The notes under the pieces: model-generated
The model's database searches: none
What the model was told of the DNA's origin: nothing
What the model saw: only the letters and a program-made list of their open reading frames with translations
Position numbers and translations under genes: made by a program
From: Perkinsus olseni
Taxonomy: Eukaryota
DNA: 51,953 nt
Reading direction: 5' to 3'
Assembly: GCA_013115125.1 (NCBI GenBank)
Contig: JABANN010000218.1
Coordinates: forward strand, 1-51,953
In this document: positions 1 through 50,163 of the stretch, in pieces
How the letters are laid out: every line of letters starts with the position of its first letter
How positions within the stretch are numbered: position 1 is the stretch's first letter

Positions 1-625
1 CCTCAAACTCTAAAAATTGTAGAAGTTACCTCACTGACATGTTTCGCAACCTTTAGATTGCTCGTACTGTAGGTGGTGCATTGTTAAAGATGAACCTGCA
101 GTTATGCTGACTACTACAATCGAAAAGGCTGGTTCAGCATAAACATGGTGATGCTCTGCGACATCGACGGATGCTTGCCGTATCTTTGATTGCCGCTGGA
201 CTGGAGCGACGCACGAATCATCACTGATGATTCATCAGTGTTATCTGTTGGATGTGGCTCAGTAGAGAACTACTGTTGTTGTGGTATGAAAGCAATTGGT
301 GGCTTCGTTGTCTTGGGTATGCTCAACGATCAACAAGATCTCGCCGTTGGTGCAATCAGCATAGCTCGCCATGAAACCTCGCTATGTAGGCGAGGTTCCA
401 ACTGTTTGAAGCGGGACGCCGGAAGTATGTTATACACGATGGCCTGCAATTGCAGAAGTTGTGTTCCTCGTCCCTCTTCTGCGGGTACGTGTATCTACAC
501 CGGTGTTGAGAAATAGTTATGTATGGCCCATCGTCTGCAGTTTTCCGAGAAATTCCTGCAGCCTTTTTTGGAACTAGTGTGGAAATCGGGTACTTTTTAC
601 GACTTTTTCATCAGTCTCCGCTCAG

Positions 626-3603
626 GTATGTTCGTGTCCATTGGAGTGGGCGCGAGAGAGGCCGGTTCATTCCTCTGGATTAGCTTCATACTAGCGGCCC
701 TTGCATGCGGGTAAGCCGACTCGAAAAATGCAATTCATGCATCGCTTCGCTCCGCTCAGAATATCTGGTCTTTGTTACTGTGAGATGAGCTCTCTCGTCC
801 CAGTGGCTGGATCGGCCTACAGCTACGTCTACACCATCTTAGGCGAGCTACCGGCCGCTATTGTTGGCTTCGTGCGCATGCGTGCATACCACTCCTTTGC
901 AAACTCGTCTCAGGTTCTTTGTGTCGACAGCTCTATCTCGGCCGCTGCTGTTGCCAGAGCGTTCGCTGCCTACGTCAACGTTCTGCTTGGTGAAAAATTG
1001 CCGAAAATTTTGTAAGAATTTTTTGGCAAGAGAATGGGAATGATCATGTGGCATCTCGCTCAACTCCTAGTACTTGATAGCGTCAACGCCGGATTCCATC
1101 CTGTAGTTCTTCGAGTCCAATAGTTCGGACTTTTACGTCGTCCGATATCACCTTTTTAGAATTATAGGCGGGATACTTTGTGCTACTTTCACGACTACAA
1201 TGAGTGACTCGGCTCTGATCTGTCTCGGGTCACGACGCCATTATTCACCTCAGTCGCTTCGAAGTAGCCACGGCGGAAAATTACCGGGTCAAATTTTCCT
1301 GTTGGTATCTTATGGGTAAAATGACTTCTTTTCTAATTTCCGCTCGTCCAATTTCTTGTCCGTAGTAGTCCCATACCACCCCTTCACCAAATTTCATCCT
1401 CTATTCCTTAGGGCGAGCGAGATTAACATCAGGTACGACTACGACCTCGGATCTTCCGAGAATCTTTGGTCGATATCTTTGCTTTCCTTCCTGCTCTGCC
1501 TCCTCCTCGGGCTGCTCCTTTATCGCGGGATAAGGCAAACGAGCACGTGAGTGTGGGGAAAATTTTTCCAGAAAAAGCGGAAATTTTTTTATGATTTTTC
1601 AGTTTCAATAATTGGAGTACAATTCTGAATATGGCGGTGATTCTAGTGTTCATAGTTGGAGGTGAGTTCGCGGATGCAGCGCGCGCCCTGATGATCGATT
1701 TGTCAGGTTTCGTGTTCTTCCGTAGTGATATTTGGCATCCTACCACTCCTGAAGGGATCGTTCGCGGCTCTGGTCGAGTCTTTTTTGCGTATCTTGGTTT
1801 TGATGTTATCAACTGCTTGGCTGAGGAGACAACCGAGGTGAAAAAATCAGGAAAATTCAAATTTTCGGGAAATTAACGAAATTTGTCTCGAAGATCTCAA
1901 ATTTTCCAGTCGGTAATAACTCAACTCTAAAAATTTCGATAATTTTCCGGAGAAAGATACGAAAATGACATCTCTGGTTCGATCCTTGGCAGGGTTATTT
2001 CTTCAGGCACGTCGACTGGTCCCGCGGGCAATAATCATCACCATTGTTATTTGCTGTGTGGTGTACGTATTGGTCGCAGGTAGGCGGAGCGAAGCGATTC
2101 ATGTAATCCAATTCTAGCTTTTTAGTCGCTTTCGTCCATTTGGCACCCCTGGCTAGTGTTAGTATGGACGCACCGCTGGCGACAGCTTTTGAAGCGAGAG
2201 GAGCGACAGTCCTAGAGTAAGCAACCCTCTTCGTATCTTCCTTGCTTCGACCTTGGATATTCCATAGTCTATTCTGAACAGCTACCCTCGACAATATTTT
2301 CCGAAATTTTTTCAGATTCGTGGTCTCGCTCGGCGCCGTTGGTAACACGATGACCTCCGTCATGTCGTCCATGATCGTTCAGCCGAGAATCATGCTGAGG
2401 ATGAGCAGTGACGGCCTCCTCCCCGAAGCGGTGAATCGCATCTTATATAGTGAAACGGCTGATCGATTCCATCTTGGTCAGATCGGAAGACTCACGAGTT
2501 CTGGTACTCCTTCCACGGCTCTTATTATAACAATCGTTATGTCATCAGCGCTCGCCCTGGTGATCGATTTTGAAGCTCTCGCAGATATTGTATCTTTCGG
2601 AGCTTTGCTGAGCTTCCTGGCTGTATGCCTATGTACCATGTTAGGTAAAAAATTTCTAAAAAATTTGCCTGAAAATTCTCGGGAAACTTCTCTTTTCTCC
2701 AGGCCGAGTTGTGCCGCCCTCTGTCTATCGTCAGCGGGCAGCCGCCAGTCAACAGCCGCAAGAATACGGAAAACCCGACGCAAACGGAGCGCCCGCGGCG
2801 GCCAAGAGTAGAACGCTCGTAGCCGATCTGCGAGTTCCTTGGATCAACCTAAGATTCTCGTGCAAGCGCTCAGCTCCGACCACATTACCCCAGAGAGATA
2901 CTCCTCATGGTTCTTTTCTTCGAGGTGAGATTTTTTTCCCAATTTTCCCCGACTTTTCCTTTTTTTCAGGTTGCAACATTAGTTTTCGGTGCGCTATTTT
3001 TGCACGATCTTGTGAGTATCTTTTTTTACCTCCCTTTGTTAATCATTTGTCTCTTCGCCGGGATCGCCACTTCCCGCGTGGTCCGCACATATTTCAAGTA
3101 AGACGAATTTTATCAAACCCGACGACTCGAATGATAACAGTTACACTGATCTCGGCGATGGTAATGAGGACCCTCTGACCAAACCTTTCCGAGTGCCGGG
3201 AGCCCCAGAAGTCCCTCTAGCTGGGATGTTCATCAACACGTAAAGCCAGCGTGATAAGAGATTTATTATCGCCCTCGAACGATGGCTCAGGTACATGATT
3301 TCGGGCCTGCCATTCGCGGCCGTTCTCCGAGGATTGGCAGTGATGCTCGTCGCCATCACATTTTATTTTGCGTATTCAATTAGAAATTCGAACTTAGCGG
3401 CATCGGGAGAAACAGCGGTGCAAAAGATGTAAGCCGGGAGAATCGAACCGGGTGCCTCTCTCTTGACAGCCGCAACCTCTACCACTGTGCTACTCGAGAT
3501 GTTTCTCCATTGTAGGGACGGGAAGATAGCCGGACGATATGTGAACTTCGAGAATGACGACGACTCCACCAGCCTTGATGGAGACACCGAAGATGTGATT
3601 TAA
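626..3603 (+). CDS. APC-superfamily cationic amino acid transporter (CAT-like), multi-exon; N-terminal exon(s) not identified
   Basis: Spliced exons read GMFVSIGVGAREAGSFLWISFILAALACG (626-710), ISGLCYCEMSSLVPVAGSAYSYVYTILGELPAAIVGF, GRVFFAYLGFDVINCLAEETTE|ARRLVPRAII, SSMIVQPRIMLRMSSDGLLP, LADIVSFGALLSF and PFRVPGAPEVPLAG, all typical CAT motifs. GT-AG introns include 711-759, 1838-2006 and 3429-3515. The last exon ends DTEDVI-TAA at 3603. Confidence 0.88.
3429..3515 (-). other. 87-nt intron of the + strand CAT gene containing an antisense tRNA-Asp-like pseudo-tRNA
   Basis: The reverse complement reads TAGCACAGTGGTAGAGG-TTGCGG-CTGTCAA-GAGAG-AGGCA-CCCGGTTCGATTCTCCCGG: A-box, GTC anticodon loop and B-box at tRNA spacing, with poorly paired stems. 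Confidence 0.72.
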
Positions 3604-3955
3604 AGTCATGACCAGTTTCTTGTGAGTAACTTCTTCGTTGCGTTCGAGTGGACACCCCTCTCGAGAGGGAAAATCTGCGTAGTGCGCCGTATCCACTCTC
3701 ACACATCGGGGTCATTTCTTTGACGCACCGCTCCGCTGAGCTTCTCAAAGATAGGAAGCTTGCAAATTGGCGCAAACGTGATCAAAACTTGCAATCTCGC
3801 TCCGACTTGCATTTCCTCAACTGATGGCTACCCACTATAACAACACAACACTATGCTTCACTATAGAATTTTTCAGCCGATCTACGATAAGAATTTCAGC
3901 GAGGGTAGTCAACCAAAAATAGTATACAGGTAAAAGTAGGACAGAAATATAATCA

Positions 3956-6252
3956 TTAATCGGCCCATGCAGGAGCCATCAAAAGCAAAGCGCCAGGGAG
4001 CAGATCGGCACGCAACGGGCTTGCCGAATCCATCAGCTCGCCATCGATGCCGAACTCAGCGTATCTTCTATCAGGATGAGACGCATCTCGTTTAATAGTG
4101 GGTTCAAAAACAACAGAAGTAACTCGCTCGGTCGTCACTCGAGGATCTTCCAAGTGCTTGTTGTCCGTCACCTTCGCTACGATTTGGGTGAATCTGCAAA
4201 GAGGCGTATCTTGAGGTCAACAAATGTACCATCTTACGTAAATCGATCAACTGCTGGTATTATAACCAGCTCCATGTAGCCGCTTGCTAAATGAGCGTTT
4301 TGCATCCAAACGGTTCGGTCTTCGGTATTTCGCACGGCCACGTTCGTCAGCGACAACAAAGATACTCCCTTCTGATCATCAACTTCAACCCATCCCTCTT
4401 CGCCCGCCTTCACGATTGGTGACGGATCAAGCATCTTGTGACCATCAGATTTTTCCAAATATTTTGTAGTAATTTTATGCAACACACTGCAGGCCATGCA
4501 AGAGGTCCCGCAAGGCCCCACATCTTGCAACCACCGAAGCATCTTCGATTCCGCCGTCGGCAGCGGCTCGCTCGTCTCAGGCGAGGAGGACTCGGCCGTT
4601 AATTCAGAAACGACCGGGCCAACTAGATTACTAATTTCGGGCGCGCTGGTGGTCTTATGGCAGCCGAGTGAAGGAGCCGCAAGACGACGGTCTATCTTAC
4701 TCCGTAAATACCTGAAAAATACCCCTGCCAGGGATCGAACCCACGACCTTCCGCTTACCGGCATTTCATCCCAGTGTATGCCAAACTAAATCCTCCTTTT
4801 CCATGTCCAACGTCGCTCGGATCTCCCCCTCCTCGGAACACCGTCTGCGCACCCGCAAAGATATATCTCGTGGGGCCCAAAAATCTTTTATTTTCCGACC
4901 GGACATTAACCTCGGCGATAAAACCATAATTAAGTCCGCACAACGCCAAAGTAACCTGTGGTCCCTCAGGCAAGTATCTTGTTATTTTCATGACATCCAC
5001 AGGTCTCATCCAGCCATTAACAATAGCCGTCGCCGCTGTCAGGGGCTGCCTCATTCCGCCACTGGCCGCCAAAGAGTTGTGGCTTCCCGCTGGGAGTTGA
5101 CCAATTCCGAGAATCGCAAAAGCCTCGGACGCATCCGGTCGTTCGGCCATGCCGTTCACGAGTTCATAGACCAAACCATCGCCGCCAACTGCTGCAATCG
5201 CTCCTATTTTTTCCAAATCGATCGACCGAGCGATTTCACCCGCGTGGCCAGGATGGTCAGTCTGCACGACTGAGTACTTCCGATGGGCTCTGTCCAGCAT
5301 AGGTTGAAGAATTTCCCGGAACATCTTTTTTGCGCGTTTCCGACCGCCGATCGGGTTGATGACGACCAGCAGCTCTTTCTCGCGACCGTACTGGGGTGTC
5401 GTCCAGTCTGTTAAAATCTCCTCCCACTTGGCGACACCCGCAACAAAGGGAACTCGGAAAGTGAACCTGAATGAAAAGATATCTTTTGACTCTGCGATCT
5501 CCTAGGTCGACCTCAAGATATCTTACTCTCTCAACTCTCTTTTGAATGGGTCCTTGTGTTCTGTATAGCGACTCTTGAATGGATTCCGATGCTTACCCCG
5601 CAACTTCATAGAAGTAAAGATACGAATCGTCGTATCCCCTTCGACGTCGTAAGCATAAATATCTTCTGGGCGCCACTCGATCAGCAGCTCCCCGTACAAA
5701 TCATCGACGCGGATTCTGATGAAAATACCATAAAATCGCCGGACATCCTCCACGTACAACCGAAAATGACCCACTTATGCCGAACTTTATTTTACAAAAC
5801 TTAAGAACTTTCACGAACTAACATTTTCCGAAGAGTAAGTCCCTCGATCGAGGCTGTTTAAAAAGAAAAAAAATCCGTCACCAATTCCAAATTTCTGCAG
5901 TCCTCAATCGCGACCAGGAAGTGTTCGGATTCTGTATCTTGCATGCTTCAACCTCAAGATACTACCTCTTGCCAAAAGTAACATGGGCCGGCACATTCTT
6001 CCATCCCGGCTTGCCATGCTCCGTAAAAATACCAATATCGCTGGCAGCTGGTAACGACGACGACTCGCCATTATTTGTCGAATTAGCCAAATTAGTCGAA
6101 AGTTTTTCTCGCGCGCCCGGAGCCGAGTTGGGTTGACTTATCGTCGTCGCGGGCGATGCTGAACCGTGTGGAAGAATCTTCGGCTGCGAACCCGGCGGGG
6201 CTGACTCGATGCTCGCTTCATGTGGTACCTCCGTCGTAACAGGAACGGTCAT
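3956..6252 (-). CDS. Sphingosine/ceramide kinase-like protein (DAGKc family), multi-exon
   Basis: Motifs LLVVINPIGGRKRA, VGGDGLVYELVNG, LPAGSHNSLA, FLGPTRY and GIDGEL. Probable ATG at 6252 (MTVPVTTEV), stop at 3956-3958. Introns include 4712-4758. Confidence 0.88.
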
Positions 6253-6348
6253 AAATACAAAAGATAAGAGAACTGCAACGACAATCTTGCAATCTTGCAT
6301 TTCCTCAACGCTACACTGCAAATCGGCAGAGACCAGAGGATAAATGCT

Positions 6349-8990
<2,642 letters not shown>

Positions 8991-9082
8991 TGATTAAAAA
9001 CAACGAGTAAAATGGGCGGAAAATTCCGATCCCACGCTTAAACCAAAAACGTTCCAAATGAGGACGTAAAATATTTTGTAAA

Positions 9083-10840
9083 TCATTTCTCGCTGAATTT
9101 TGACTGAATTTTCTTGTCAAGTTTGCTTCGCTCCGCCTTCATCACTCCCCTCCGTCGTCGTTGCCGCTGCCGCACGCTCCTCTCGAGCGTTATGAAGGTC
9201 ATCAACAAGACCATCCATATCCCACTGATGCTCAGTCTGAGAAAAATGGACCTCGACTTGACCTCTTTTGTATCTTGCACGCATGAAGATAAGATACTCC
9301 CATCATTACTGCATCCCAGTAATCCATAATATTAACACTTCGATCGATCGCCTTCAACAACCAGAACTCGTACGGAGGAACCTACGAGAAATTTTCGTGC
9401 GCCACAAATTTTTTTTCAGATTTTTTCCGGAAAAAACTCACCGTCGTCGGCAAATCTTTAGCTGTCGTATCCGGCGGCATGGTCGACGGAATGGCAATAT
9501 CGTGCTCTCTTATGAGATAACTATAATCGATCGCCGGGGCGGGCGCTACTGTCGTTGCCACATCCGGGACCACAGCCCCTGAGCCGAACCGTGCGGCGCC
9601 TACCAAAGTCGAGCCTGAGAAGAGTAGAACGCGCGCATCGTCGAAGACCCGATCGATCCCACAATCGTTTCATTTTGACGTGATAGTAATTCGTTTCGAA
9701 ATGGCCAAATACGACGTTGAAGATATATTTTGGAAGATACCAATTGCTCATGAGAAAACGACGCATGAAGAGTCAATGGCTTCACCAAAAAGGAACTAGT
9801 CCCTCTTACCATGATTCACTCGAAGTTTCTCGGGTTACTCATAAAAATAGAACGAAAAAACAATGGGAGGGGATGCTCAATGGACTGCATTTCAGGAGTC
9901 CTCCTAGGATTGAATTTAACGTGTGAAAGACGATCCTGGGAGGGCTGTTGAACAGCCTGAATGTATACCAAAAAAGATACCAATCTCACGCGCTGCAAGA
10001 ACAATCACTAACTCTAGGATCACCAAGACTACCTAGCATCTTCGGGAGGGTTATAACTACGATACCAAAAAAATGAAGACTTATCGTGATATATTACAAT
10101 AACTACGATACCAAAAAAACTGTAGACAACGAAGATACCGAGATCACGATACATGAATTCGTCGATAGAAGTTCTATCATAGAACCCGTCGCACTACATT
10201 CAGCCGAGGACATGATCGGTTGGGTGATGTCAGGCCCGCCCATTGGAGTGGCGGGTGGCCGAGCTGAACCGATGCCTGGCAGGTTGGGCAGGGGGGGAAG
10301 CAAGGATGGGAACGGAGGTATCTAAGGTTACACTCATGCACAAGACGGAAAAAAAGATATCATCACGAAAACTGCAGCATGGCAGACCAAGCGTCCACCG
10401 AAGAATACCAATTTTGCTTATTATAAGAATTAACGGAAAGACAAATCTCTTCCCCGAATAAAAAATCTAACCAAATACCAGAATAGTAGTATCCAAGATC
10501 CATTTGCAAAAAAATCCGCGAGAACAAAATATTCGCGAGCGTAGATTTCGAGAGAATCTTAGGTTGAAGCGTGTCCCCCGCGGAAAGGCTATCGGTCCAG
10601 TACTACCTCGCTGTCGAGCATCCTAGGTCGAACCTTGATAGACATGACAAAATGGATGAAAGAAGCACACTGCAACGGCTCCGAGTGAGAATTCCGACAG
10701 ATAAGAAGACACCACACACAGGGATCGAACCCACGACCTTCTCATAATCGTCCACGCATACTAAGCGTTCGAGCTACATATTACCACGACTAGGAGGGTT
10801 CAGGACGCCGGTGAGGGTCACTAAGGAAGCTAGACTACAA
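9083..10840 (-). CDS. Hypothetical multi-exon protein with Pro/Thr-rich segments and a C-terminal TM helix followed by a basic tail; boundaries uncertain
   Basis: Exon-like segments LPPLPNLPGIGSARPPATPMGG (10103-10303), VVPDVATTVAPAP..DLPTT|gtgag (9442-9606) and LSISGIWMVLLMTFITLERSVRQRQRRRR (about 9150-9240), separated by AT-rich intron-like DNA. No recognised family. Confidence 0.45.
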
Positions 10841-11393: not shown

Positions 11394-13831
11394 TCAATGT
11401 ACCGCGGCGCGACCTTGGACCAAGCCTTGGATCGCGTAGAAAGTGCCGACGATAACAATACCTAGGACGACCGCTAGGGCTGTATAAGTTAGGTAGAGGC
11501 GGTATCCCCTTGGTTGCTGAATGCGAAGGTAAAACCAGAGGGGGAATATGTAGATTGAACCTGAGCGGAGCGAAGCTAGATTTTCAAATACCGGGTTGTT
11601 TGCTTTGAACTTACATGCTGTGAGAAGAATCCCACCTACGGCTTGGAAGTAGGCGAGCTGACTTCTAGCGACCACTGCCAACAGTGCGATGATGCTTATC
11701 ATCACACAACGCCATATAATCCTCCAGACAGTGCTTCCAGCGAAAGCGGCAGTTGTAGAGAATTTATGCTGAAAAAAATACCTCTGCCGGGAATAGAACC
11801 TCGGCCTTTCGGAGTACGGACGGGTGCTCGACCGCTACGCCAAACGAGGACTCACCAGCAGATGAGATATCTGCGTCTCGCTGCTAACCATCACCGGAAC
11901 CATGAGGACAGGGACGAATGCGAGCATCCTCACCAGAATGAAGGCACACGCTGTGTATATGAGCCACTTCGGGAGGACCCCCGCAGGAGCAACTAAAAAA
12001 TGACAAAACCGAGGATCGAACCTGCGACCGATTAAGCCATCTTCAATCTCGCCAATTCAAACTCCTGCTTCGCTCCGCCCACTTACGAGAGAAGTTTTCT
12101 ATGTAAACTTGCTCACAAGGGCCGTCACATAAAAGTATCCCCGCGGTTCCCAACACGTAAACGTAGAGTATCGAAATTATCAAACAGATGCACATCCACA
12201 TTGTGATACGGCTAGAGGGCGTGTCTGAAAAGGAATCTTTTCTGTGCGCACCAGCGAGGTCGTCGACGTACTCTTGACACAACCGTAGAAGGGCGGTAGG
12301 GATGGCGCCGCGCCAGAATTCCAAATGGACAGCGCGACTGCTGTGAAGAAATGCAAAACAGGCGGATCAGCAAGCTGCAGGTCATTCTCGACCTTTTTAA
12401 GGTCGGAAGATTCGACCAAAGTACCTGCGGCTACCTGAGTTGGGAAAGTTGTGGTATGGAAATGTGCACGCATGCGCACGACACTTACCAACATTCCCAA
12501 ACCACCAAGACCTGCGACTACGGCGGTCACTGCCAACACGCCATTGATCTCTTTCATAAAAGGACAAATGATTATTAACAAGGATAAAAAGGAAAATATG
12601 ATTATCCACCATTCAACTGAGCAAAGGAAAGATATTCTTCGCTGTGCGCAAAGATACGCCTACCGGATATAGAATCAAACAGAATATGCGTAGTGATGCC
12701 CATGGCCGCCTCAACGCCAATGACCGACATAAGATACTCCAGAAAGATGACCTAAGAATCAGGAAAAAAACTTCGCTCCGCTAAACTTTATTTTCCGCCA
12801 AGACCAACAAAAGATTCGCTACTAATCTCACAAGCTTCGTCTTACTGCCGAACCTAGGCTGCCGATCGCATTTGAATTTCGTGGCGCAGTGACGCTGCGC
12901 GAGATGGCCAACTTACCGCCGATGCAAACCTCCTCCCAAGGCGACCACCACAAAATTCGGCAAGAAAAGTGTACTCGCGTTCGAACGGTGGGACGCCTTG
13001 TTCTTCAGCAAACTGACAAACCTACAGCGGAGCGGGGCAATAATTCTTTCGCAACTTTCACTCATACCTACTTTTTCGTTACGCAAAGCCGCGCTGACCA
13101 TTCTGATACAAATGAATACCGAAACAGCGGTGAGCGCTTGAATCGGGATCGCCAGCAAGCCAGCGGTGGTGAACATGAACGGTACCGAGAGGCCGATGGT
13201 TGTTAGTGCATTCAAGCACGTGAGAACGAAGGACCTGACCCGGACCAGCAAGCAGTTACTCGACACGATCACAACAACGCTCCGCCACGTACTATACAAT
13301 TTGCAAAGTTTTTCGCTTGGAGGAGTCTTTTCATAAAGTCCAAGGAATCATTGGTTCTATGACGGAGTTTGCAGACCGTCATGATCACCATCATGAGGTG
13401 TCCTGTGAACATGTGTCGACATCTGCATCAGTATAGGTGCATAAATTGGAAAGAATCAACATCAAAAATAAACAAGAAATTACGATGGGCCACCCTTACC
13501 ATCTACTCTTGATGGATATTCCCTCTACGATGAGGCGCTCACGAAGAAGAACAAACATGAATGAACGATCAGTATCTAGTAGGTCACTACTGCACATTAC
13601 AAGTTAAAAGATACTACATGTACGCCATGAGTAGAGCTAGGCAGAACCCATGCCACCCCAACACTACCTCAAAGATATGCCGCTTTCCATTCTCTTACAT
13701 ACCGCACCATTCCCAACTCCCTTGCCTGACGTTGGCAGCTGGGCCTGGGTGGTGGTGGAGGGGTCCGTCGAGGCCTCGGTGGGGATGGTCGTAGCCACTG
13801 AGATCTCCGATGCTGAGTAGCAGTCAGTCAT
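11394..13831 (-). CDS. AAAP (Aa_trans) family amino-acid transporter, copy A (divergent)
   Basis: Exons MTDCYSAS..GNGAVCKRMESGISLR, SFVLTCLNALTTIGLSVPFMFTTAGLLAIP, EYTFLAEFCGGRLGG, HFFTAVALSIWNSGAAPSLPPFY and GSIYIFPLWFYL..QGRAAVH*. Multiple TM segments; same exon layout as copies B-E. The family call rests on the N-terminal G-L-S-x-P-F-x-F-x-x-A-G signature. Confidence 0.8.
11769..11855 (-). other. 87-nt spliceosomal intron filled by a degenerate tRNA-like sequence (A-box, B-box, T7)
   Basis: GTGAG-TCCTCGTTTGGCGTAGCGGTCGAGCACCCGTCCGTACTCCGAAAGGCCGAGGTTCTATTCCCGGCAGAGGTA-TTTTTTTCAG. The flanking exons join in frame (HLL|HKFST). Confidence 0.75.
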
Positions 13832-32418: not shown

Positions 32419-32484
32419 CGAAGAAGGAATACAATGGCTAAAAATAGAGGCGAAGCCTACTGGGCTCTTCCACTGATCAAATAT

Positions 32485-37864: not shown

Positions 37865-40347
37865 GGTTGAAAGAAAATCGCCCTAGCTCTCAATTCCAGA
37901 GACTCTCTGCTCATTCTGAATGAGCAGTGCTCATTGAGCACACGCCCGAGAGAGCTAACCAGGCCGAGCTCTGCCCACATCAACTACACACAGAGTCTTC
38001 GGTAGGCGATACGACCATGCAGCCGTGTCCAAACAGACTAACTTTGTCAATGGATGAGAATCGCGAGAAAATAAAGGCACTTGATTTAATCAACGGGATT
38101 GACGAAGGTGCTCTGGAACACAGGAAACTCCTCATGTATGGAGAGTAGCAGGAGCCACCGTATCTCAACTGAGACTGCCACTCCCTCGTTGCGGGTACAA
38201 AGCTGATATGAACAAATCAGAGCGCCACGTTCTCATTCTAGCCGCGTGGTGAATTCTGCGTCTCAAAGCCGAGACCATCAGCCTGCCGCGCTACTAACTC
38301 ACCAGATAGAATAACACGTAGCGGAATGAAGGTCCTGTAGTCGGTGCGAACCTGGTTAGACCAATCAGGTTGATGATGATACGACCCACTCGGAACTTCA
38401 AATCCTCATTGAGCCGCGGGATTCCCGAGTCGGGATCGAATTCACAGAGCCTCGGACAGTGTTTTACATGCAATGATTGCAGTGCAATCTGCCCGATTCA
38501 CTCTCAGAGCTGCGAAAGAACAACACCACAGAGGAACCGTGCAATAAGCTATCGAATATGAAATGTCCGTCTTTGAAAGACACGATACATCCAGCAGGCT
38601 CGGAGTCGTGACGCCAGGTTCACGCGAGAACCGGCCTCTCCGGGCACAGGCACACATTGTGTGCCACACAAGACTCGTGTGACCTATGATAAGCTCGATA
38701 TCAGACACGTCATTCTCACGTGGAGAGCTCTCTCTTGTGCCACAAGTGGTGTTCGTACTGATTTACCAGCGAGTATGCTTGGACTCAAGGCAATGCCAAA
38801 AATCACGCAATGCAATCATTCTGCATATGTCCGTCGAGACACTTCTTCGGCAAAGTCGTTCCTGTAACAGGAATCCTGTTGCATTTCTCGTCGGATGCTA
38901 TTCCACAGCCAGTCGATGAATGTCTCGGTGTAGCTCTAGACGAAGCGGAAATATACCCAACACGGCTGCGGAAATTATCGCCCCAGTGAGCGCCTGCCGT
39001 TGCCGACTATTGGGACCTAGCGCAGGCCGATTACTCTGTAGCCCCAGGCTTGTCCGAAGGCGCTAAGGTCACTGGGAGACAGTATGGCCATCTGACCATG
39101 ACGGGTGGTTATTGTGACCGGTGATTGCGAGTGGTGATTGCTAACGGTTATGGCGCGGGTCTTGTACGGAACACTGGGCCTTCAATGGGGCTGCCACCCG
39201 TCGAAGGTTAAACCCGACGGCACACTTTCTTATCCTTCCAAATCGAACCCCGCCAGTAGTGTCCCTCCACATCTTCGCACCGGCTGATGCAATAAGGCCA
39301 ACATCAATGAGCAACCTCCTTGTACGCTCGTAGCAACCACGCCCTCATGAACTCAGCTTGCTTGCGCAGAACAAGTCGTGCTCATGATATACCGCACAGC
39401 CCAGCGTTGAGCATGATCACAAACAGTACGATTTTCCATCCAGAGCATACTTGAGCTTCAAGTCTTGAAGCCCGCTGCCCCGTGACGTCGGTGCTCGAAA
39501 TGCCGTAGCAGCCATAATGTGAATTAGAAAGGACAGCATCATCAATAGAGTTACTCTACTGGAGTGCGTACAAAGGGTGATATGATGTTGGTACAATCAT
39601 CCTTCAAGTGGGGTGAATATCGGTAACTCCTTCGCAGCGTCGAGAAGGCTCATCCAACAGAAATCCTGCTACAAGATCTGGCAAACCTCTATCGTAGGAT
39701 TTTGCGATCAAGATCAGAAAAAGAATCAAATGAGAATTAGAATTCGTTGAAATGAAAATTAGATACAGTAGTGTATTTCCGACTAAAATTTGCATACGAA
39801 TTTACTGCTCGGCGGCAATACGGGAAATAACCTACGCATGTTTGTGCTCAACGCTCGCCGAACGCCGCCCCATAAACTACCCTTCGGGTCTTGCCATCAT
39901 CGGCGACACTTCCCAAATACACTCTGAGTGACCTGCTTCGGTTGATGGAGGGCTGGCGATCGGTCAATGCTCAATCACTGAGCCTCAACGACAACGAAAG
40001 TGTCCTCGGCAGTTCGGCTTCGGCACTCTGCTGCAAGCGCGACTTCAATTTGGCGCAGGTTACCTGCATGTCTCGCAGATAATTCCGGCTGCCTAAGAAA
40101 ACAGCTGCCCCCCCAGTCAAGACGATATCGACCTCTGTCACTAATTGGAGAACTGCAAACTCGAACGTATCTTTAAGGAAGTCAAACAAATGTTAAGTTA
40201 GAGATCAACATTCAAGTGAAATTCTAGTCTGCAGCAATGGTCCACTAGATATCCTACCTAGTATTACGACCTCATAATAGTAGTCCCCACCGGGGATAGA
40301 ACCCAGGTCGTTCGTAAGACAGTCATGAACGTTTCTTCCTACAGTAT

Positions 40348-43222
40348 TCAGACATCAGCCCAAATTTGAATGATACTGAAGACTGTGCCGAGGATAGCAG
40401 CTGCTGAGGCAACGATAATACCAACATAAAGACCGGCGACAACAGCGGAGCTGCCAGTCCTCATAACAAGGAGGTAAAACCCGAGCGGCACGACGAAAAC
40501 AAGAGCTGAGAAGAAACGACCATCTCACGCCCGCATGAACCCGTGCCAAGCCCCACCTATAGTGATCGCACATCCAGTGACAGCATAGAGTTGAGGCAGG
40601 TGATTTTGAAGGGCGACAGCCAAGCCACATACAACAACAGTGACCAGCCCCCGCCACAATACACGCAACTTAACCGACGCGGTTCGAACCTGATCATCGC
40701 TGAGCTTCACTTTGAAGAACCCATGCAGTAGCGGAGCTTCTACGGCCGATAATGAACCATCACAGCGAAATATGAGGACCACAATGTCGAGTGTGATTAC
40801 CATCAACACTCATGGCCGCATTCAACTGCGAGCAACGGCCCTTACAGGATAGACACCAGCAGGGGCACCTCGAATACCGCAATTCCCATTTCTGATTGCG
40901 AGTTTACACACCAATCATCCGCTGAGTCTGAGCGAAGATATTCCGAAGCGCGCCGGAATACTGCGATGGCCCGTATGAAAGAAGAATGGCAGCAGCATCA
41001 GAACTACTAAATCCCCACGATCGATACTGGTTCAAGCGGCAAGATGCGTGAGGTTCCTGAGATCCCCGTGTATTACCACAGTGGCCTCCGTCACGGCCAT
41101 CAACGGCGTCATTAACACAGGGATGGCCACGAGACCGTAGGCTATGTACACCAGATAGACGAGCACGAATGCTCCATAAGGTATTACTGAGAATAGAACC
41201 CACGACCATGCGAATGACAACCGAATGGCTTAACGATCCAGCCAAACCCACTCACCAGTTTGGTCACTCTCGAGTAGCGTCAGATAATTGGGCGGACATG
41301 CACTATCTCCACAGAGATGCATCCCCAACACTCCAACAACGCTCATATACAAAAATGAGCATCCAAGCGCCGCAGCCAGGCATCTCTCGAAATATCTTCG
41401 CCGTCCACTGTACCCCACTGCCACGCTCTTCTCCATCGTCTGACTGTCCTCTGTTGCCGCAGACGCAACCGTATCGGCCGGTGACGATGGTCGAACAGGG
41501 GATCCACCCTTCACGGACGGTCCTGAGGGTTTATCATTTCAAGATTTCCAACGGCGCCTGCGCCATTAATTCTATTCGCGGAGATGTAGGGACATAATTC
41601 CTCGAACAATTCTGCTATTGTGACGATCGCTCTACAGCGTAGCCTGAAGCTAGGACAAGGTGTTCTTGTATAGCTGGAACAGAGCTCACAAGAAATTGAG
41701 GATTAACTACAGGGCATGCCTCGCGCGAGGACTCTCCCAAGATTTGACTTACCAGAAACGACGCCCACATACGCCGGCAACGAGAAGGCGTTCGAAAAGG
41801 AGAAGACGACAACTCCGAGAAGAACGAAGAAATCGCCAACCCCTCCAGCGGGCGAATAGAATGGGATCATCGGTAAGCTAGATTGATCGTCCTCCGTCAA
41901 TCGAGCGATCGAGGCTATAATCTGACAAAAAGAAAGATACGCCCAGCACCACTTCCCGAATGGCTCCTACCAGTCCGATCAACCCGACCGTCAGGGCCAC
42001 TGGCGTAACGATCGCGCACACGCGTGTGATGTGCTCGTAGATCGGCACCACCGAGAGGGCGAAGGAAAGCACGGCAAATACCAGAACGCAGTAACCATCT
42101 GAAAGACGAATCTAGGACAGAATTTTTCGGGGAAATTATTACTAGCGATTCGAAAAAGTAACGATCCTGCCTCAGCCAGGGCAACCATGTTGGCAATTAA
42201 CGTTAATAAAAACTGTATACTGATCATCTGAAGAGAGGAGAAACCCGAGAATTCACCTCGACCTTCTCCGCCTCGCTTCAACTCGGATAAGGAAGGTAAC
42301 CGTCGATGAGCGTAAAATGAGCCCAACAACAACGACAACTGCGAGGCTCGTCATTCACCCCAGCAGTTGGCGGAAACAGCGCAAACAGCCCGGCCGGATC
42401 AACTACTGTTGATCGGCCGCAGTGAATCACGAGAACGGCCGAATTACGGCGATAATAACGACTTCCCCAAATGAATTTACACCACGGATAGGGTTCCTAG
42501 CCAACGAAGCCAGTCGATGAGAACTAGATTCTACAGAACGTAGTCCATAACAATTCACATGCAAATCGGCCAATCACTGGTGGAGTTCACACGACCCTCC
42601 TACAACTTTATACGCGAAAAAAAGCAAGGCCGGAGAGTATTTCAGCACGGGCCTGCCAACCCAATCACCGGTGTGATGAACACCCTCCCCCCAACCCACT
42701 TACCGTAGTGATTACGGAACGACCTTTCAAGCCGAAGAGCATCTCGGCGATAAAACCATATTCACGGTTCAAAACTTCAACACCTCTAAGCCTGGCATAT
42801 GACGTGACCTGAGCTAATTAATTGCCCTGCCCCGGGATCAAACCTGCGCCCTATTTACTACCGCTTCAGACTGCACTAAGTGAGCTTGCAGCCACACCGC
42901 TCCGCCAACTAGGCCGGTGATGAGCGACGCGATGATTAGGCTGAACCATCCCACTCGGGAGAATGCGTACGGGCTTGCGAGGTTGGTTGATATCAGTGCA
43001 TTCACACACACCAACATGAACGACCTGCGAAGGAATCTCAGGTTGAAGCTGGCATCAAACAAAAACGAACCGCTTCCGCATCCTCCAGCCCTCATCAGTC
43101 TCTTCAGCCACTGCGATTTCTTCGACCTCGGGCGCAGTCGAAAGATTCTCCTGGACGCCGATAATCTCGTTCGAACTCAGCGAAAATCTAATCTTCTTGT
43201 GGAGCCTGTCCACGATAGATGC
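40348..43222 (-). CDS. Divergent AAAP-family amino-acid transporter, copy F; 5' end unresolved (further exons may lie up to about 43950)
   Basis: Exons SFMLVCVNALISTNLASPYAFSRVGWFSLII, VLNREYGFIAEMLFG (about 42730-42785), MISIQFLLTLIANMVALAEAG, LVAIPVLMTPLMAVTE, LRVLWRGLV..LPQLYAVTG and ALVFVVPLGFY..QIWADV-TGA (40348-40350). Confidence 0.75.
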
Positions 43223-43995
43223 CTGAAAATAATATTACAACGGAAAACCGGAAATAATGGTAAAATTTCTATTTTTTTCGGTTTTTTCCTGCATTATGAA
43301 TTTCGTATAATCTTCCGGTGAATTTTCTGATTACTATTTGGGCGCAATTTCTGAATAATTTCCGGGTGTATTTTCAGAACAATTTTCGTATGATTTCGAG
43401 GGACGTTTTGCACCAATGACAATCTGCCCGAATCTTAGTTTTACTTTTTTCAACCAGACTGGGTTCGACCTACTTCGTGTCACGCAAGGAGCGAGAAAAG
43501 ATACGATTGAATCATAACCTTGTTGTACTCGATGAAGGTCGAAGCGTGCAACTTGCAGAAAAATAGATACTTTCCCAGAATTTTAGCACGGAATTCTGGT
43601 ATGTATCAACCGACGAAGGAAGAGTTGATTTCAAGTCGGGATTCTCACGAAGGCGAAGATATTCTCGTCGAACAAGGAGCTACAGTAGCCGGAAAAAACT
43701 GATGAAAAAACCGTAAAATGCAGTATTACCTTCTCGGGGCCTTCTTCCGGCTGGGAATCGGGAGTGGGTTGTATAGTGGGGATTAGAAATAGGTAGCAGA
43801 CTTGAAGATTCGACGACCCGAAGTGCTGCTTTTGATTTAGCGCACGCCGTGGTGATCGATTTATCCTCGGACCTCTGCGTATCTTATGCCTACGGATACC
43901 AGATAAGTCGCGAACTCGTCGTGAGTGCTGTATCCTTTTGTCATGCTGGGAAGATACGGAATAGGTCGGGTCGCTGAGCAGTGTTCGAGCTCGCT

Positions 43996-44775
43996 ATGTC
44001 TTTTCATCGTGCGTTCGCAAGAGTTGTCTGCAACTACAACAAGAGCATCGAAGGCTCCGTGCCATGGTAGTTCGGGGCGTATCTTAGGTTGAAGCATGGC
44101 AATCACAGGTACCAAGTGAAGCGGGAGAAGTCGCCATTCCAACAAGTGTGGGACGAAGTCTTCACGCCCGTCTGGTTCAAGCTCGTTAAGGGCCCGTAAG
44201 TCTCCCCCACCTTAGAGAGCCGCCGGTTGAGCATACACAGGGGAATGCCTTCAAGTGATGTTGACTATTTCCAACCTATTAGGAATACTAATTGCGATGG
44301 ATAGGATTACCTACACCCAGCCTTCCTCCCGCCGGGGACGATGAAACCGCACAAACCGGGCTGGTCAGGTACGAGCGTTGGGAATATAACGCCCTGGTTG
44401 CTCGCTACAGAGGGATGGGCATTATGGCCGATGATGCTATGAATGATAAGGTATCCGGTTCGATCCCTGGCGACGGCATTTTATCCATTTCAGGATATGA
44501 TCGTCGAACGAGCGCTGGACATCATCCCCGAGGATATCCGTATCCAAAGGTACAGACGGATGATGCGAGGTAAGGTCGACCTCTAGGCGTATCTTTCGAC
44601 CGTTTCATTACCCTCAGGCGCGGTTCTGGCTGGTAGAAAGCTTCATCTTCCGCTAGAGCTACAGAACTACGACCCGATGGTGCCCTACATGGCGCCCTAC
44701 ATCGAAGAGGCCAAATTCCAGATGCAGGAGGAACAGGAGCTGCTGGCCTTTCATCCCTGGGACCGACGACTGTAA
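43996..44775 (+). CDS. QCR7: Cytochrome bc1 complex 14-kDa subunit (QCR7/UQCRB), alveolate type
   Basis: Exons 43996-44066, 44109-44195, 44369-44450, 44494-44569 and 44618-44775 join in frame: ..RYRGMGIMADDAMNDK|DMIVERALDIIPEDIRIQRYRRMMR|GAVLAGRKLHLPLELQNYDPMVPYMAPYIEEAKFQMQEEQELLAFHPWDRRL. It may continue via a further intron at 44772. Confidence 0.85.
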
Positions 44776-45380
44776 GTCGAGCACCTGGGGGAAATTTGGT
44801 ATCTTGTTGTTTTTTAATGAGCGAGGTTTGAAATGAGTTTATAATTTTAGAGTATGAGTATGTAGTAAAGTATAATGCGCGGATCTCGATGGCCGCGTCT
44901 TCCGCTGGTTGAAATATTCATATTTGCGGGCGGCCACTTTACTGTCAGTAGTTCCGAGGACGCTGTTCGCGGATCTGTAGGAATTCTGAACGTACCGGGA
45001 CGCAATATGAACTTAATTGGTTAACTGCCATTATAGTACTTTAAAGGGGCGCCAAGGGACGCGTCAGCTCGGTAAACAGTGCTACGTAGTAGACTTCAGC
45101 GGTCAAAGCCACCGATTCAGCTGAGCTGTCTACCAAGCATCGTCAGCTTCTACTGACGTTACTATGCGCTGTTTGGCAATTATCGAGGATCGCTTTTGAG
45201 CGATCATTCCCGGGTATTTAGCGTTCTCGTCAGTAGCGACTGCCGAGTCATGAGATCGCTGCTTTGACGATGCAGAAAAGCAGAAGCATTTTGCTTTTCA
45301 AGATGCATCATCATTTGTTTGCTTTCTATTTTCCCTTTTTTCAATCAGTTTGGATTCGCTTCATCCTCCGTCCTCCACAG

Positions 45381-47362
45381 ATACACCGCAGGCGTGTCCG
45401 GTTTTGGCGAGACTTCGATGCACTCGACCTTCTTCACTATGTAGCCGCTCGATGGCTGATGAAGTATTGGTACATTCGGCGCTCAGTGCGTCGATCATCA
45501 TCATGGTTTACGATGAGGGAAAATATTTTTTATTTGACCTCGGGTCGATTTTAGTGGTCAATTTGTATTCTGTGGTGTTTCGCTCCGCTAGATTCTCCTG
45601 ATTTTCATGAGCGGATTTGTCGAAGAAGAAACAGACGACCCAGCAGGCTTCGTTGCGGCTGCGAGGCGACGTGCTTCGAAGCAGCGGCGAAGTCACGACG
45701 ATATCACGACCGAGGATCGAGCCTACGATCTCTCCAGGAAAGATGTGCCCGTTGTCCGAGAGCCCGCTGATGAGCACCTGGAGGTAGTGTTGACTGACTT
45801 GTTGGTAATAGACGGTCTGACGGCCCAGGCTTTGGCGAGGCTGCGGGCCTCGCATGCTCCGGTGATATCTCCTGATCGAGAACGGCAACCAGTGACGCAT
45901 GCGAAGGAACAACCCGGCGTTGATGAAGCGGATAGAAAGCGGTTGTCCCCTGTTGTTGTGGAGGGCCTGAGTTCCGCAGGTGGGCTAGCTAGGAGAAGAT
46001 GCATTGGTGGCAATGCTTTTAGATGGTGCGACGAAGGAGGGTGACACTGGCCACGTTGAGGACAGCGGGAGTAGAGTAAATCGTCGGGTGATAGAAGTCA
46101 AGCCAGTGACCTATGCTGAGTAGTGACGGGCTGGCGTGGAAGAATACCGAATTTTGATGATAATGTTTGATTCGCAAGGAGAGCTAGATGGCTGCTAGTC
46201 GCTCTCCCGTTTTACTTGGAGCATCTACCCCTCAGCTCACGTTCGCTCAGTTTTGGTGGGTCCTTGCTGCGCGGGGCAACGAACATAATGATTCATTCGG
46301 TGCCCACGGTAGTCGGTGTTGGTTTTCGCTCCGTCTCACTACGTTGTCCCAAGGGCGATGTAAAGGCCTCTCAAAGGTTGCAAGGTCATCAATACTGGCA
46401 TCTCCTGGTAGGGGCGCAAAAAGCTTCCTCATGGTAGCTGGTAATCATCGAAGTCCCATGCCGACTGAGAATTCCGGACATACTGCACATTTTTATAGCG
46501 TCAAAAGGTTCGAGCGACCATTATCGAATAGTTAATGGTATTCAACAATTTGTCGGGTACCCTTTAGATCAACCTTCGCTGTGCGTTAGATACGTTGCTG
46601 TCTGCGAGCCACATGTGGGATGGCGAAGGTTCGGAGGTCTCGGTAGGGGACGCCTGGAGGAGGACGATGAGCTAATAAGGAAGCTGGCGCAACAGGCCAA
46701 GTTACCGCTTATCCGCGTACTTTGTGTTCGCCCTGATGTTGGTCGCAGGTGAAGCACTTCAGCCGACAGCTACGCCGAATCAATGCGGAGAAGCAAGCCC
46801 GAGAGAAGAGCAGGCCTCGGGAGGATGATCGGGTGATATCGTTATCAGAGGGAAGATTTGAATCAGTTGTTCTCAGCTTTCCATCGATGCTAGATCTCGA
46901 GGGCTGGAGTTTCACCGTCGTCAAAGAGAAGGGCATAAGATGAATAGGGAGGCTCGGAGCCGTCGAACGCGGAAGTCGAACTCGAAGCGGCTCGGTGGAG
47001 TTTCGGTGATGGTCGCGTGATGGGGGTAGTTGATTTGGTCAGGTCCGAAGGAAGATCAGGAGGCAGCCGAGCGGGCTAGGTTGGAAGAGATGTTGCGACA
47101 GCATGATTGTCTTCGTGCTAAAGTGGATGCATTTCGACGCTGGCTCCATCTTGGTTGCGCCTTCAATGGTAATCGAGAGATCCGCGTCCGCCACTTCGGT
47201 CGAGGAGATGAGTGGGCAACCGCCTTGAGCTGTGAGTTTGCAGTGCAGATGTTTGAAAACAGTGTGTATTCCCAGAACGCCGCTTTACGGCGGGAGTATC
47301 GCCAACACTGGCTTTATTGGGCCCCTCGTAATTTTTCTCGTGCGATTTTCATGGCTGTTTAG
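45381..47362 (+). CDS. Hypothetical multi-exon gene(s); model unresolved
   Basis: Exon-like ORFs after CAG/TAG acceptors (45381, 45592), plus 45607-46044, 46749-46943 and 47030-47362. The last two are partly duplicated at 48722-49068. Confidence 0.35.
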
Positions 47363-50089: not shown

Positions 50090-50163
50090 TACTCTGGGCG
50101 GGACTTGAACCCGCAACCTTTGGATTAGAAGTCCAACGCTCTATCCGATTGAGCCACCAGAGC
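50090..50163 (-). tRNA. tRNA-Arg(UCU), intronless
   Basis: GCTCTGGTGGCTCAATCGGATAGAGCGTTGGACTTCTAATCCAAAGGTTGCGGGTTCAAGTCCCGCCCAGAGTA forms a full cloverleaf with anticodon TCT and differs from the 35957 copy at 2 positions. Confidence 0.95.

What the first reader, a model, noticed from the sequence alone, without database searches (positions are those of the whole stretch)
614..45591. GCGGAGCGAAG motif at splice sites with donor/acceptor polarity, like split terminal inverted repeats
The identical 18-mer GTAGGCGGAGCGAAGCGA starts introns in two unrelated genes (2080-2097 +, 8317-8334 -). The identical 16-mer GCTTCGCTCCGCTCAG ends introns in two unrelated genes (744-759 +, 11561-11576 -), with variants at 614-625 and 45579-45591. 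Other copies at 7688, 9126 and 12068 (donor side) and 7942 (acceptor side) follow the polarity; 12771 is an exception. Donor and acceptor forms are reverse complements capped by GTAG and TCAG, the layout of TIR-bearing introner elements. No intron in this window has both ends, so an oriented DNA-binding or splicing element is equally possible.
Basis: partly seen in the sequence, partly recalled or inferred. Interest (0 to 1): 0.72.

Follow-up and report, generated by a model that had tools for sequence, protein, structure and literature searches.

The report
Repeated motif capping Perkinsus intron ends
A 12-letter DNA word recurs at the very ends of short introns in four neighbouring genes of the mollusc parasite Perkinsus; it is most likely the conserved tip of a small repeated element written into old introns, not a maker of new introns.

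Summary
GCGGAGCGAAG occurs 9 times, all within 745-12781, against 0.03 expected. Protein matches place the window in Perkinsus, P. olseni or a very close relative. Eight of the 9 copies lie in GT-AG introns supported by RNA contigs or by protein-guided models. The ninth (9126) lies in the last codons of an exon, not on a donor side. The introner reading fails every test I could run. Three motif-bearing introns of the transporter gene were compared with a paralog about 30% identical: two share position and phase and one shares an approximate position, so they are old. No 4-nt or longer direct repeat flanks any motif intron. No intron holds a second arm above the level of control introns. Similarity rarely extends past 12-18 nt. 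The motif is the commonest of several short repeats that fill local introns: 14.7% of intron bases lie in recurring 13-mers, against 1.2% of exon bases. Best reading (0.42): the conserved end of a small dispersed repeat written into existing introns. No genome was available, so genome-wide tests remain open.

The parts
744..759 (+). Acceptor-form 16-mer GCTTCGCTCCGCTCAG ending intron 711-759 (49 nt) of the plus-strand amino-acid permease gene. The core lies 4 nt from the 3' splice site.
   Evidence: Searches give the position. One search shows that removing 711-759 restores one open permease-like frame. One search gives Pfam AA_permease on a downstream exon. No RNA joint was shown for this intron.
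2080..2097 (+). Donor-form 18-mer GTAGGCGGAGCGAAGCGA starting intron 2080-2125 (46 nt) of the same permease gene.
   Evidence: Contigs of two runs (X7, X8) follow the window to 2100 and then diverge, so another allele or paralog has a different intron interior.
7688..7698 (-). Core in donor orientation inside kinase intron 7586-7731 (146 nt), 33 nt after the 5' splice site.
   Evidence: This intron starts with a different repeat, GTAATTTCGTGGCGCAGTGACGC.
7942..7952 (+). Core in acceptor orientation relative to the minus-strand kinase gene, in intron 7930-7986 (57 nt), 12 nt before the 3' splice site.
8317..8334 (-). Donor-form 18-mer starting kinase intron 8044-8334 (291 nt). It is identical to 2080-2097.
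   Evidence: The exon ends ...SWGQRA and the next exon starts VMMLDVAKG, as in the P. olseni protein P0002.
9126..9136 (-). Exonic copy that encodes part of ...EGGAKQT-stop at the end of a small minus-strand ORF, 136 nt upstream of the kinase start codon.
   Evidence: An RNA contig covers 9065-9236 without a joint. One search gives the translation across the two RNA-supported introns.
11561..11576 (-). Acceptor-form 16-mer ending intron 11561-11614 (54 nt) of the minus-strand amino-acid transporter gene. It is identical to 744-759.
   Evidence: RNA joint 11558/11613 (cut +2) is seen in 4 of 4 runs laid. The intron sits at the same codon and phase as in paralog 17316-17396.
12068..12078 (-). 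Core in donor orientation, 8 nt after the 5' splice site of intron 11993-12086 (94 nt). The same intron carries a tRNA T-arm-like GGTTCGATCC and a T-run.
   Evidence: RNA joint; distances. A paralog intron has the same phase within one codon (17749-17796).
12771..12781 (-). The exception: donor orientation 19 nt before the 3' splice site of intron 12752-12916 (165 nt), followed directly by T7.
   Evidence: RNA joint.
13026..13037 (+). Variant (GCGGAGCGGGG, 2 mismatches) in acceptor orientation, 4 nt from the 3' end of intron 13022-13071 (50 nt). The next ~20 nt resemble the 7688 copy.
   Evidence: The 7688 x 13027 extension scores 12, above the maximum of 11 in 2000 shuffles.
614..623 (+). Short variant TCTCCGCTCAG ending at a 3' splice junction of the permease gene.
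   Evidence: An RNA contig of run X10 matches from 624 onward and has 201 unlike letters before it.
45578..45591 (+). One-mismatch variant TTTCGCTCCGCTAG, 16 nt upstream of the annotated start codon of an N-acetyltransferase-domain gene. It may be a 5'UTR or trans-splice acceptor; this is unverified.
   Evidence: P. olseni proteins P0006 and P0007 begin at 45607. No RNA was laid on this region.

Best explanation
GGCGGAGCGAAGC, which reads as three GCGRA pentamers, is the conserved terminal core of a small dispersed repeat living in the short spliceosomal introns of this Perkinsus genome. It is the most frequent of several such intron modules in the window.

How it most likely works:
- Copies exist in both DNA orientations, which points to spread at the DNA level.
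- The end of the unit abuts the exon. [quoted passage not shown]
- In the other orientation it reads core-complement+TCAG and serves as the pyrimidine tract plus the 3' splice site.
- The unit has been written into pre-existing introns, whose interiors turn over while their positions stay fixed. It did not create those introns.

Shown: the repeat, its intron location, its offsets and polarity, and old positions for two motif introns (a third only approximately).

Inferred: that it is or was mobile, how it spreads (transposition followed by deletion back to the ~45-60 nt intron size, or repair-mediated copying primed at the splice-site consensus), and that it is used as the splice signal rather than merely tolerated.
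For: - 9 copies against 0.03 expected. It is the top non-simple 12-mer, with 8 copies.
- 8 of 9 copies lie in introns. The 26 catalogued introns total 2775 nt.
- 4 copies lie exactly 4 nt from a splice site (P = 0.004) and 6 of 8 lie within 12 nt (P = 0.02).
- The identical 18-mer and 16-mer both include the splice dinucleotides.
- Both orientations occur within single genes.
- Introns are a mosaic of short repeats: 408 of 2775 intron bases (14.7%) lie in 13-mers that recur 50 nt or more away, against 57 of 4758 exon bases (1.2%) and 0.5% in shuffles.
- Other modules behave the same way: a 23-mer starts two consecutive kinase introns (7500, 7731), and tRNA 3'-half-like units fill or cap introns in sense (4712-4758) and antisense (6604-6656) orientation.
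- Old positions: same codon and phase at residue 396, same phase within one codon at residue 299, in a paralog about 30% identical.
- Extended family likeness exists for some pairs (7688 x 13027; 745 x 2084 at 83% over 30 nt).
- Contigs of two runs (X7, X8) keep the exon and the first 21 intron bases and then differ, which indicates structural variation beside the motif.
Against: - No discrete element boundaries, no TSD and no second arm were found.
- Beyond 12-18 nt most copies share nothing above chance. That also fits a selected binding motif.
- A simple composition filter explains the polarity only weakly. Control introns average 0.39 purine at -16..-5, but some reach 0.58-0.67, against 0.75 for the motif.
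- All 9 exact copies lie in the first 13 kb. The tandem transporter paralogs at 17-38 kb have none, so the local density need not reflect the genome.
- Writing a 16-mer into a 54-nt intron at a fixed position needs an equal loss of old sequence. That step is assumed, not seen.
- Only one 52-kb window was available.
Confidence: 0.42

Rival explanations
1. It is a true TIR-bearing introner. A roughly 50-90 nt element of the form GTAG-core...core-complement-TCAG inserted into exons and created these introns, and one arm then decayed in each copy, perhaps because a 12-16 bp terminal hairpin would hide both splice sites.
For: - At family level the donor and acceptor forms are perfect 12-nt complements capped by GT.. 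and ..AG.
- Typical intron length here (44-60 nt) equals two arms plus a short loop.
- Relatives have such elements: Amoebophrya (PMC7789003, passages and section 10) and Symbiodinium/Polarella (bioRxiv 10.1101/2020.10.14.339549, passages).
Against: - The two motif introns whose position and phase could be checked are old, and a third sits at about the same position as in the paralog.
- 0 of 8 motif introns has a boundary direct repeat of 4 nt or more.
- Second-arm scores are 4 in all 6 end-capped introns, within the 3-7 range of the 17 introns with no motif or variant.
- One copy is exonic.
Confidence: 0.15
2. It is a functional RNA-level element. Complementary copies in different introns of one pre-mRNA pair with each other and steer splicing (exon skipping or back-splicing), or the word is an intronic splicing enhancer read by a protein.
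For: - Each of three genes holds an inverted pair: 745/2084, 7688/7942 and 11565/12068, with 26-30 nt at 81-83% complementarity.
- The core is exactly conserved while the flanks are not.
- The core lies close to splice sites.
Against: - The geometry is inconsistent. Two pairs bracket exons from outside, the back-splice layout, while the pairs 12068/11565 and 8320/7942 bracket them donor-to-acceptor, the skipping layout.
- A protein-read RNA signal would not work as its reverse complement.
- The word is absent from the introns of the paralog array.
- None of the 15 joints shown (of 40) is a skipping or back-splice joint for these pairs. The other 25 were not visible.
Confidence: 0.15
3. It is a DNA-level binding site cluster for a sequence-specific protein (transcription, chromatin boundary or recombination) marking a roughly 13-kb domain. 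Introns are simply where non-coding space exists.
For: - Both orientations occur, the 12-mer core is exact, and there is strong regional clustering: 9 copies in 13 kb and 0 in the next 39 kb.
- One copy lies 136 nt upstream of the kinase start codon.
Against: - A binding site does not predict the same 4-nt offset from splice sites in 4 copies, or copying of the splice dinucleotides with it.
- No binding protein or matching motif is known. Text searches for the word returned only unrelated primer strings.
Confidence: 0.1
4. It is a fragment of a tRNA-derived (Pol III-type) repeat, such as an extended acceptor-stem or A-box-like end, travelling with the tRNA-half-like modules seen in the same introns.
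For: - Intron 11993-12086 holds the core, then a D-arm-like stretch and a T-arm GGTTCGATCC, then T-runs.
- Low-threshold ARAGORN folds 12002-12073 as tRNA-like with GCGAAGC as the 5' acceptor strand.
- Several copies are followed by T-runs (listing).
Against: - At that ARAGORN threshold 241 'genes' are called in 52 kb, so the fold is not evidence.
- Rfam finds no tRNA match in 1-15 kb even at E = 10.
- Only 1 of 9 copies is next to a T-arm.
Confidence: 0.08

Closest known systems
Introners / introner-like elements of dinoflagellates (Symbiodinium, Polarella; bioRxiv 10.1101/2020.10.14.339549, passages read)
   Same: Repeated sequence shared by introns of unrelated genes, ending exactly at splice sites. 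Some classes work in both orientations. The host lineage is sister to dinoflagellates.
   Different: Those elements span the whole intron, carry inverted repeats within one intron, have 4- or 8-nt TSDs of which one copy supplies a splice site, and mark recent gains. Here only one end is shared, there is no TSD, and the positions that could be checked are old.
Amoebophrya introner elements with IR and DR motifs (PMC7789003, passages and section 10 read)
   Same: 8-20 nt complementary motifs associated with intron ends in a parasitic myzozoan relative.
   Different: There both arms lie in the same intron, 3-5 nt direct repeats overlap the boundaries, and the splice sites are non-canonical. Here the introns are GT-AG with one arm each.
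MITEs (miniature inverted-repeat transposable elements), from general knowledge recalled rather than tested by a call
   Same: Short, non-coding, present in both orientations, with a conserved terminus and a variable interior, often found in introns.
   Different: No paired TIRs, no TSD and no defined unit length were found. The conserved part is only 12-18 nt.
Antisense Alu exonisation in primates (recalled)
   Same: A repeat whose one strand supplies a pyrimidine tract plus AG, so that orientation decides which splice signal it can mimic.
   Different: Alu elements are 300-nt retroposons that create exons inside long introns. Here a 12-18 nt unit forms the actual ends of minimal introns.

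Membership tests
Introner (intron-creating transposon) | Similarity between introns of unrelated genes that begins and ends near both splice boundaries | tested here: not met
   Similarity covers one boundary only. Opposite-end scores are 4, against 3-7 in the 17 introns with no motif or variant. Extension scores are mostly at shuffle level.
Introner (intron-creating transposon) | Target-site duplication, with one copy providing a splice site | tested here: not met
   0 of 8 motif introns has a direct repeat of 4 nt or more at either boundary model. The maximum is 3, the same as in the other 18 catalogued introns.
Introner (intron-creating transposon) | Recent, lineage-specific intron positions (presence/absence) | tested here: not met
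   The introns at residues 396 and 299 of the transporter are shared in phase with a paralog about 30% identical. A third, at residue 127, appears shared, but its phase was not checked. The other 5 motif introns could not be tested because no relatives' DNA was available.
Introner (intron-creating transposon) | Many near-identical copies genome-wide | not testable with these tools
   No genome is held. The metagenome scan returned 33 loci, each with a single match of the searched 18-mer; one of them holds a second copy of the 11-mer core, and none resembles Perkinsus.
Amoebophrya-type introner element | Inverted repeat between the 5' and 3' ends of the same intron, plus 3-5 nt direct repeats over the boundaries and non-canonical splice sites | tested here: not met
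   All 26 catalogued introns are GT-AG, and no intron has both arms. Direct repeats are 3 nt or less, as in controls.
MITE | Paired TIRs flanked by a TSD and delimiting a unit of defined length | tested here: not met
   The forward-then-reverse pairs on the plus strand (7942/8320 and 11565/12068) enclose coding exons rather than a discrete element.
tRNA-derived SINE | tRNA-like head with A and B boxes contiguous with the repeat | tested here: inconclusive
   A T-arm lies next to the motif in 1 of 9 copies. Rfam gives no tRNA match at E = 10 or below in 1-15 kb. The only ARAGORN support is at a threshold that genes in the window.
Spliced-leader RNA intron relic | Identity with the intron part of Perkinsus SL RNA | tested here: not met
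   P. marinus SL introns start GTAGATATCAGG... or GTAAATATCAG... (primers in Table 1 of PMC3101222, section 6 read). These differ from the motif after GTAG. A P. olseni SL RNA was not seen.

The most novel reading that the evidence does not exclude
This could be an undescribed kind of intron parasite in Perkinsozoa: a miniature cassette that carries a working splice site at its tip and overwrites the 5' or 3' end of introns that already exist. Intron positions would stay ancient while intron ends are repeatedly re-seeded from a family whose two tip types are reverse complements. That would be introner-like spread without intron gain, and it would leave exactly the 'split TIR' picture seen here.
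Probability: 0.2. Interest if true: 0.8.

Novelty: new variant of a known kind. Interest (0 to 1): 0.5.

Why it matters
Introners are currently the main explanation for bursts of intron gain. They are abundant in dinoflagellates and Amoebophrya, the relatives of Perkinsus.

This locus shows repeat-derived intron ends at intron positions that are old. If that holds genome-wide, shared intron sequence cannot by itself be read as evidence of intron gain. It would also mean that short introns can have their splice-site regions replaced by mobile or copied sequence.

The finding gives a concrete, countable signature for Perkinsus genomes: a fixed 4-nt offset and strand polarity. In the library searched I found no paper that links Perkinsus with introners beyond two passing mentions. 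The species lists in the supplements of the large introner surveys (PMC9860276 and PMC12130899, seen only as search listings) could not be opened and may bear on this.

Tried and rejected
- Whole genome: none is held.
- Metagenome scan with the 18-mer: 33 loci with one match each, GC 0.34-0.71. One locus holds a second copy of the 11-mer core. None looks like Perkinsus, so these are chance hits.
- Viral contigs: 1 hit for the 18-mer and 40 for the 16-mer, which I judge to be about chance level. Not followed up.
- Remnant second arms that I thought I saw by eye in introns 711-759, 2080-2125, 11561-11614 and 11993-12086 score no better than controls, so I dropped them.
- A 'TAG' direct repeat around a 31-nt unit in intron 2080-2125 was noted by eye only, has no parallel in the other copies, and was dropped.
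- Within-gene co-evolution of paired arms: only 745 x 2084 stands out, with score 9 at the 99th percentile of shuffles.
- tRNA reading of the motif itself: not significant.
- SL-RNA intron origin: rejected against P. marinus primer sequences (PMC3101222).
- Dada transposons, which target tRNA genes in P. marinus and have GCGAAN-type TSDs in other hosts (PMC3706591, passages read): a lead only, with no test possible.
- RNA duplex energies between whole introns were dominated by intron length and were uninformative.
- Protein search with the last exon of the small ORF holding copy 9126 found nothing, so there was no presence/absence test.
- Literature search for the word itself returned 8 papers with unrelated primer strings.
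- Read laying showed only 15 of 40 joints. The permease joints and any skipped or circular forms were not visible.
- My first script enumerating splice pairs for intron 2080-2125 printed nothing because its test window ran into a stop codon, and a repeat enumeration also printed nothing because of a length condition. I therefore claim only that the frame is open after removal, not that this intron solution is unique.

Full report
**What the sequence is.** The window is eukaryotic nuclear DNA of about 50% GC with many short GT-AG introns. A 235-residue exon translation is 97% identical to 'sphinganine kinase lcb4 [Perkinsus olseni]'. An 802-residue P. olseni model maps exon by exon, mostly at 90-100% identity. 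A third gene matches P. olseni proteins at only 88%. The source is therefore P. olseni or a very close relative or haplotype. No whole genome is held.

**The observation.** GCGGAGCGAAG occurs 9 times, all between 745 and 12781, against 0.03 expected; the largest count in 100 shuffles was 1.
- Eight of the 9 copies continue with C, and GCGGAGCGAAGC is the most frequent non-simple 12-mer of the window.
- Six copies are preceded by G.
- The word reads as GCGGA-GCGAA-GCNNN, a 5-nt period that also shows up as offset matches.
- One-mismatch copies lie at 14697, which reads as coding sequence just after a start codon, and at 45578.

**Gene models.** RNA contigs from four coded runs gave 14 minus-strand introns among the 15 joints shown; 25 further joints were not shown.
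- These include 11561-11614, 11993-12086, 12752-12916 and 13022-13071 in an amino-acid transporter gene (451-residue open frame).
- A GT-AG search guided by protein P0002 gave 10 introns in a protein kinase gene running 8990 to 6543.
- In the plus-strand permease gene (Pfam AA_permease), removing 711-759 and 2080-2125 restores single open permease-like frames.
- Together this makes a catalogue of 26 introns totalling 2775 nt.

**Where the copies sit.**
- Forward form 4 nt after the 5' splice site: 2084 and 8320, the identical 18-mer GTAGGCGGAGCGAAGCGA.
- Forward form 8 nt after the 5' splice site: 12068.
- Forward form 33 nt after the 5' splice site: 7688.
- Reverse form 4 nt before the 3' splice site: 745 and 11565, the identical 16-mer GCTTCGCTCCGCTCAG.
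- Reverse form 12 nt before the 3' splice site: 7942.
- Forward form 19 nt before a 3' splice site: 12771, the exception.
- In an exon: 9126, covered by an RNA contig, where it encodes the last residues before the stop of a small ORF.

With uniform placement inside each intron, at least 4 copies within 4 nt of an end has P = 0.004, and at least 6 within 12 nt has P = 0.02. All 6 end-proximal copies have the expected polarity, which gives 0.016 by my arithmetic.

The variant CCCCGCTCCGCTGTAG ends intron 13022-13071. TCTCCGCTCAG ends at a junction at 623. The 45578 variant lies 16 nt upstream of an annotated start codon, and its use as an acceptor is unverified.

**Tests of the introner idea.**
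1. Age. The transporter has tandem paralogs at about 17-38 kb that lack the word. In paralog 1, about 30% identical in protein, the intron matching 11561-11614 splits the same Cys codon in phase 1 (17316-17396, 81 nt). The one matching 11993-12086 has the same phase within one codon (17749-17796, 48 nt). The 12752-12916 position also looks shared, though its phase was not checked. These motif introns are therefore old, yet they carry 16-mers identical to those of unrelated genes.
2. Target-site duplication. No motif intron has a boundary direct repeat of 4 nt or more, the same as controls.
3. Second arm. The opposite end of each capped intron scores 4 against the expected arm. The 17 introns with no motif or variant score 3-7.
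4. Extent of similarity. For the 30 nt inward of the core, only 7688 x 13027 (score 12) exceeds the shuffle maximum of 11. 745 x 2084 scores 9, the 99th percentile.

The defining features of dinoflagellate introners (whole-intron similarity, inverted repeats ending at the 3' splice site, and 4- or 8-nt TSDs; bioRxiv 10.1101/2020.10.14.339549, passages) are not met. Nor are those of Amoebophrya elements (both arms in one intron, 3-5 nt direct repeats and non-canonical sites; PMC7789003).

**Context: the introns here are built from short repeats.**
- 13-mers that recur 50 nt or more away cover 408 of 2775 intron bases (14.7%), 57 of 4758 exon bases (1.2%) and 0.5% of shuffled sequence.
- GTAATTTCGTGGCGCAGTGACGC starts two consecutive kinase introns, at 7731 and 7500, and recurs in antisense at 12875-12896.
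- tRNA 3'-half-like units align to the window's own tRNA-Arg from the anticodon loop onward. They fill intron 4712-4758 and cap 1976-2006, 8537-8713 and 11769-11855 in sense orientation, with their T-run directly before CAG. One unit in antisense supplies the start of intron 6604-6656.
- GTATCTT...AAGATAC palindromes are frequent. AAGATAC occurs 43 times: 35 before 14.4 kb, none from 14.4 to 40.1 kb, and 8 from 40.1 to 44.8 kb.

The motif is thus the commonest member of a wider phenomenon in which the outer end of a module abuts the exon.

**Signs of turnover.** Contigs of two runs (X7, X8) follow the window through the exon and the first 21 bases of intron 2080-2125 and then continue with different sequence. 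That sequence resembles the stretch downstream of the 7688 copy. This implies another allele or paralog with a different interior beside the same motif.

**Interpretation.** Both orientations within single genes argue for DNA-level copying rather than a protein-read RNA signal. Fixed 4-nt offsets that include GT and AG argue that the splice dinucleotides travel with the unit. Old positions argue against intron creation.

I therefore favour a small repeat whose conserved tip has been written into existing introns and serves as the donor extension or as the pyrimidine tract plus CAG. How it spreads is inferred: either insertion followed by deletion back to the minimal intron size, or repair synthesis primed at the shared splice-site consensus.

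A simple composition filter explains the polarity only partly. Control 3' regions average 0.39 purine but range up to 0.67, against 0.75 for the motif.

The rivals are a decayed true introner, an RNA-pairing or enhancer element, a DNA-binding site cluster, and a tRNA-derived fragment. They are listed with their evidence in the Rival explanations section, and none is excluded.

**Limits.**
- Only one window was available.
- Eight of 26 intron models rest on RNA for the transporter. Ten rest on a predicted protein that probably retains an intron stretch at 7398-7447.
- The permease introns rest on frame restoration only.
- External scans gave only chance hits.
- No paper in the searched library describes this motif or Perkinsus introners. 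Supplements were closed.

Noticed in passing
window 4712-4758, 1976-2006, 8675-8713, 11769-11855, 11993-12029 (sense); 6604-6656 (antisense); 10705-10748, 6475-6521: tRNA 3'-half-like units (variable loop, T-arm GGTTCGATCC, acceptor strand, T-run) form or cap spliceosomal introns. One 47-nt intron is almost entirely such a unit, with the T-run directly before CAG. An antisense copy supplies a GTAATAAATA donor.
   Followed up: partly
window 7478-7500, 7709-7731, 12875-12896; variants near 7308, 7966, 9399: The 23-mer GTAATTTCGTGGCGCAGTGACGC starts two consecutive kinase introns and recurs in antisense in a transporter intron. RNA contigs of several runs break at its edges, so it is repeated elsewhere in the genome.
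   Followed up: partly
window 1-14400 and 40100-44800 versus 14400-40100: AAGATAC/GTATCTT, often as ~30-nt palindromes near intron starts, occurs 43 times: 35 before 14.4 kb, none in the 26 kb holding the tandem transporter paralogs, and 8 in 40.1-44.8 kb.
   Followed up: partly
window ~17100-20100, 23900-26900, 28600-30700, 32500-33700, 36900-37800: A tandem array of amino-acid transporter paralogs, mostly about 65-94% alike in DNA and about 30% in protein to the gene at 11.3-13.9 kb. They share intron positions with that gene but none of the repeat modules.
   Followed up: partly
window 3876-8990 (minus strand): The public P. olseni model P0002 fuses the protein kinase gene and the sphingosine-kinase-like gene, whereas RNA contigs cover 3876-6274 as a separate ~2 kb transcript. 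The same model also appears to translate an intron stretch (residues [16 protein letters not shown], about 7398-7447).
   Followed up: partly
window 2100 and 2451: Contigs of two runs leave the window sequence at these two points, suggesting a second allele or paralog of the permease gene that differs across 2101-2450.
   Followed up: no
window 9230-9313 (minus strand): A weak C/D-box snoRNA-like match (snoU30, 21 bits, E = 6.5) spans intron 9237-9309. It is not significant.
   Followed up: no
window 8078-8105 and 51749-51953: An (ATCG)7 microsatellite lies inside the 291-nt kinase intron. A 63-nt tandem repeat (3.3 copies, 97% matches) runs off the end of the window.
   Followed up: no
window 46845-47030 versus 48743-48928, and 48039-48204 versus 49516-49681: Local duplication of parts of the N-acetyltransferase-domain gene. 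P. olseni proteins map to both copies at different identities.
   Followed up: no
window 35957-36030 and 50090-50163 (minus strand): Two tRNA-Arg(TCT) genes that are nearly identical.
   Followed up: no
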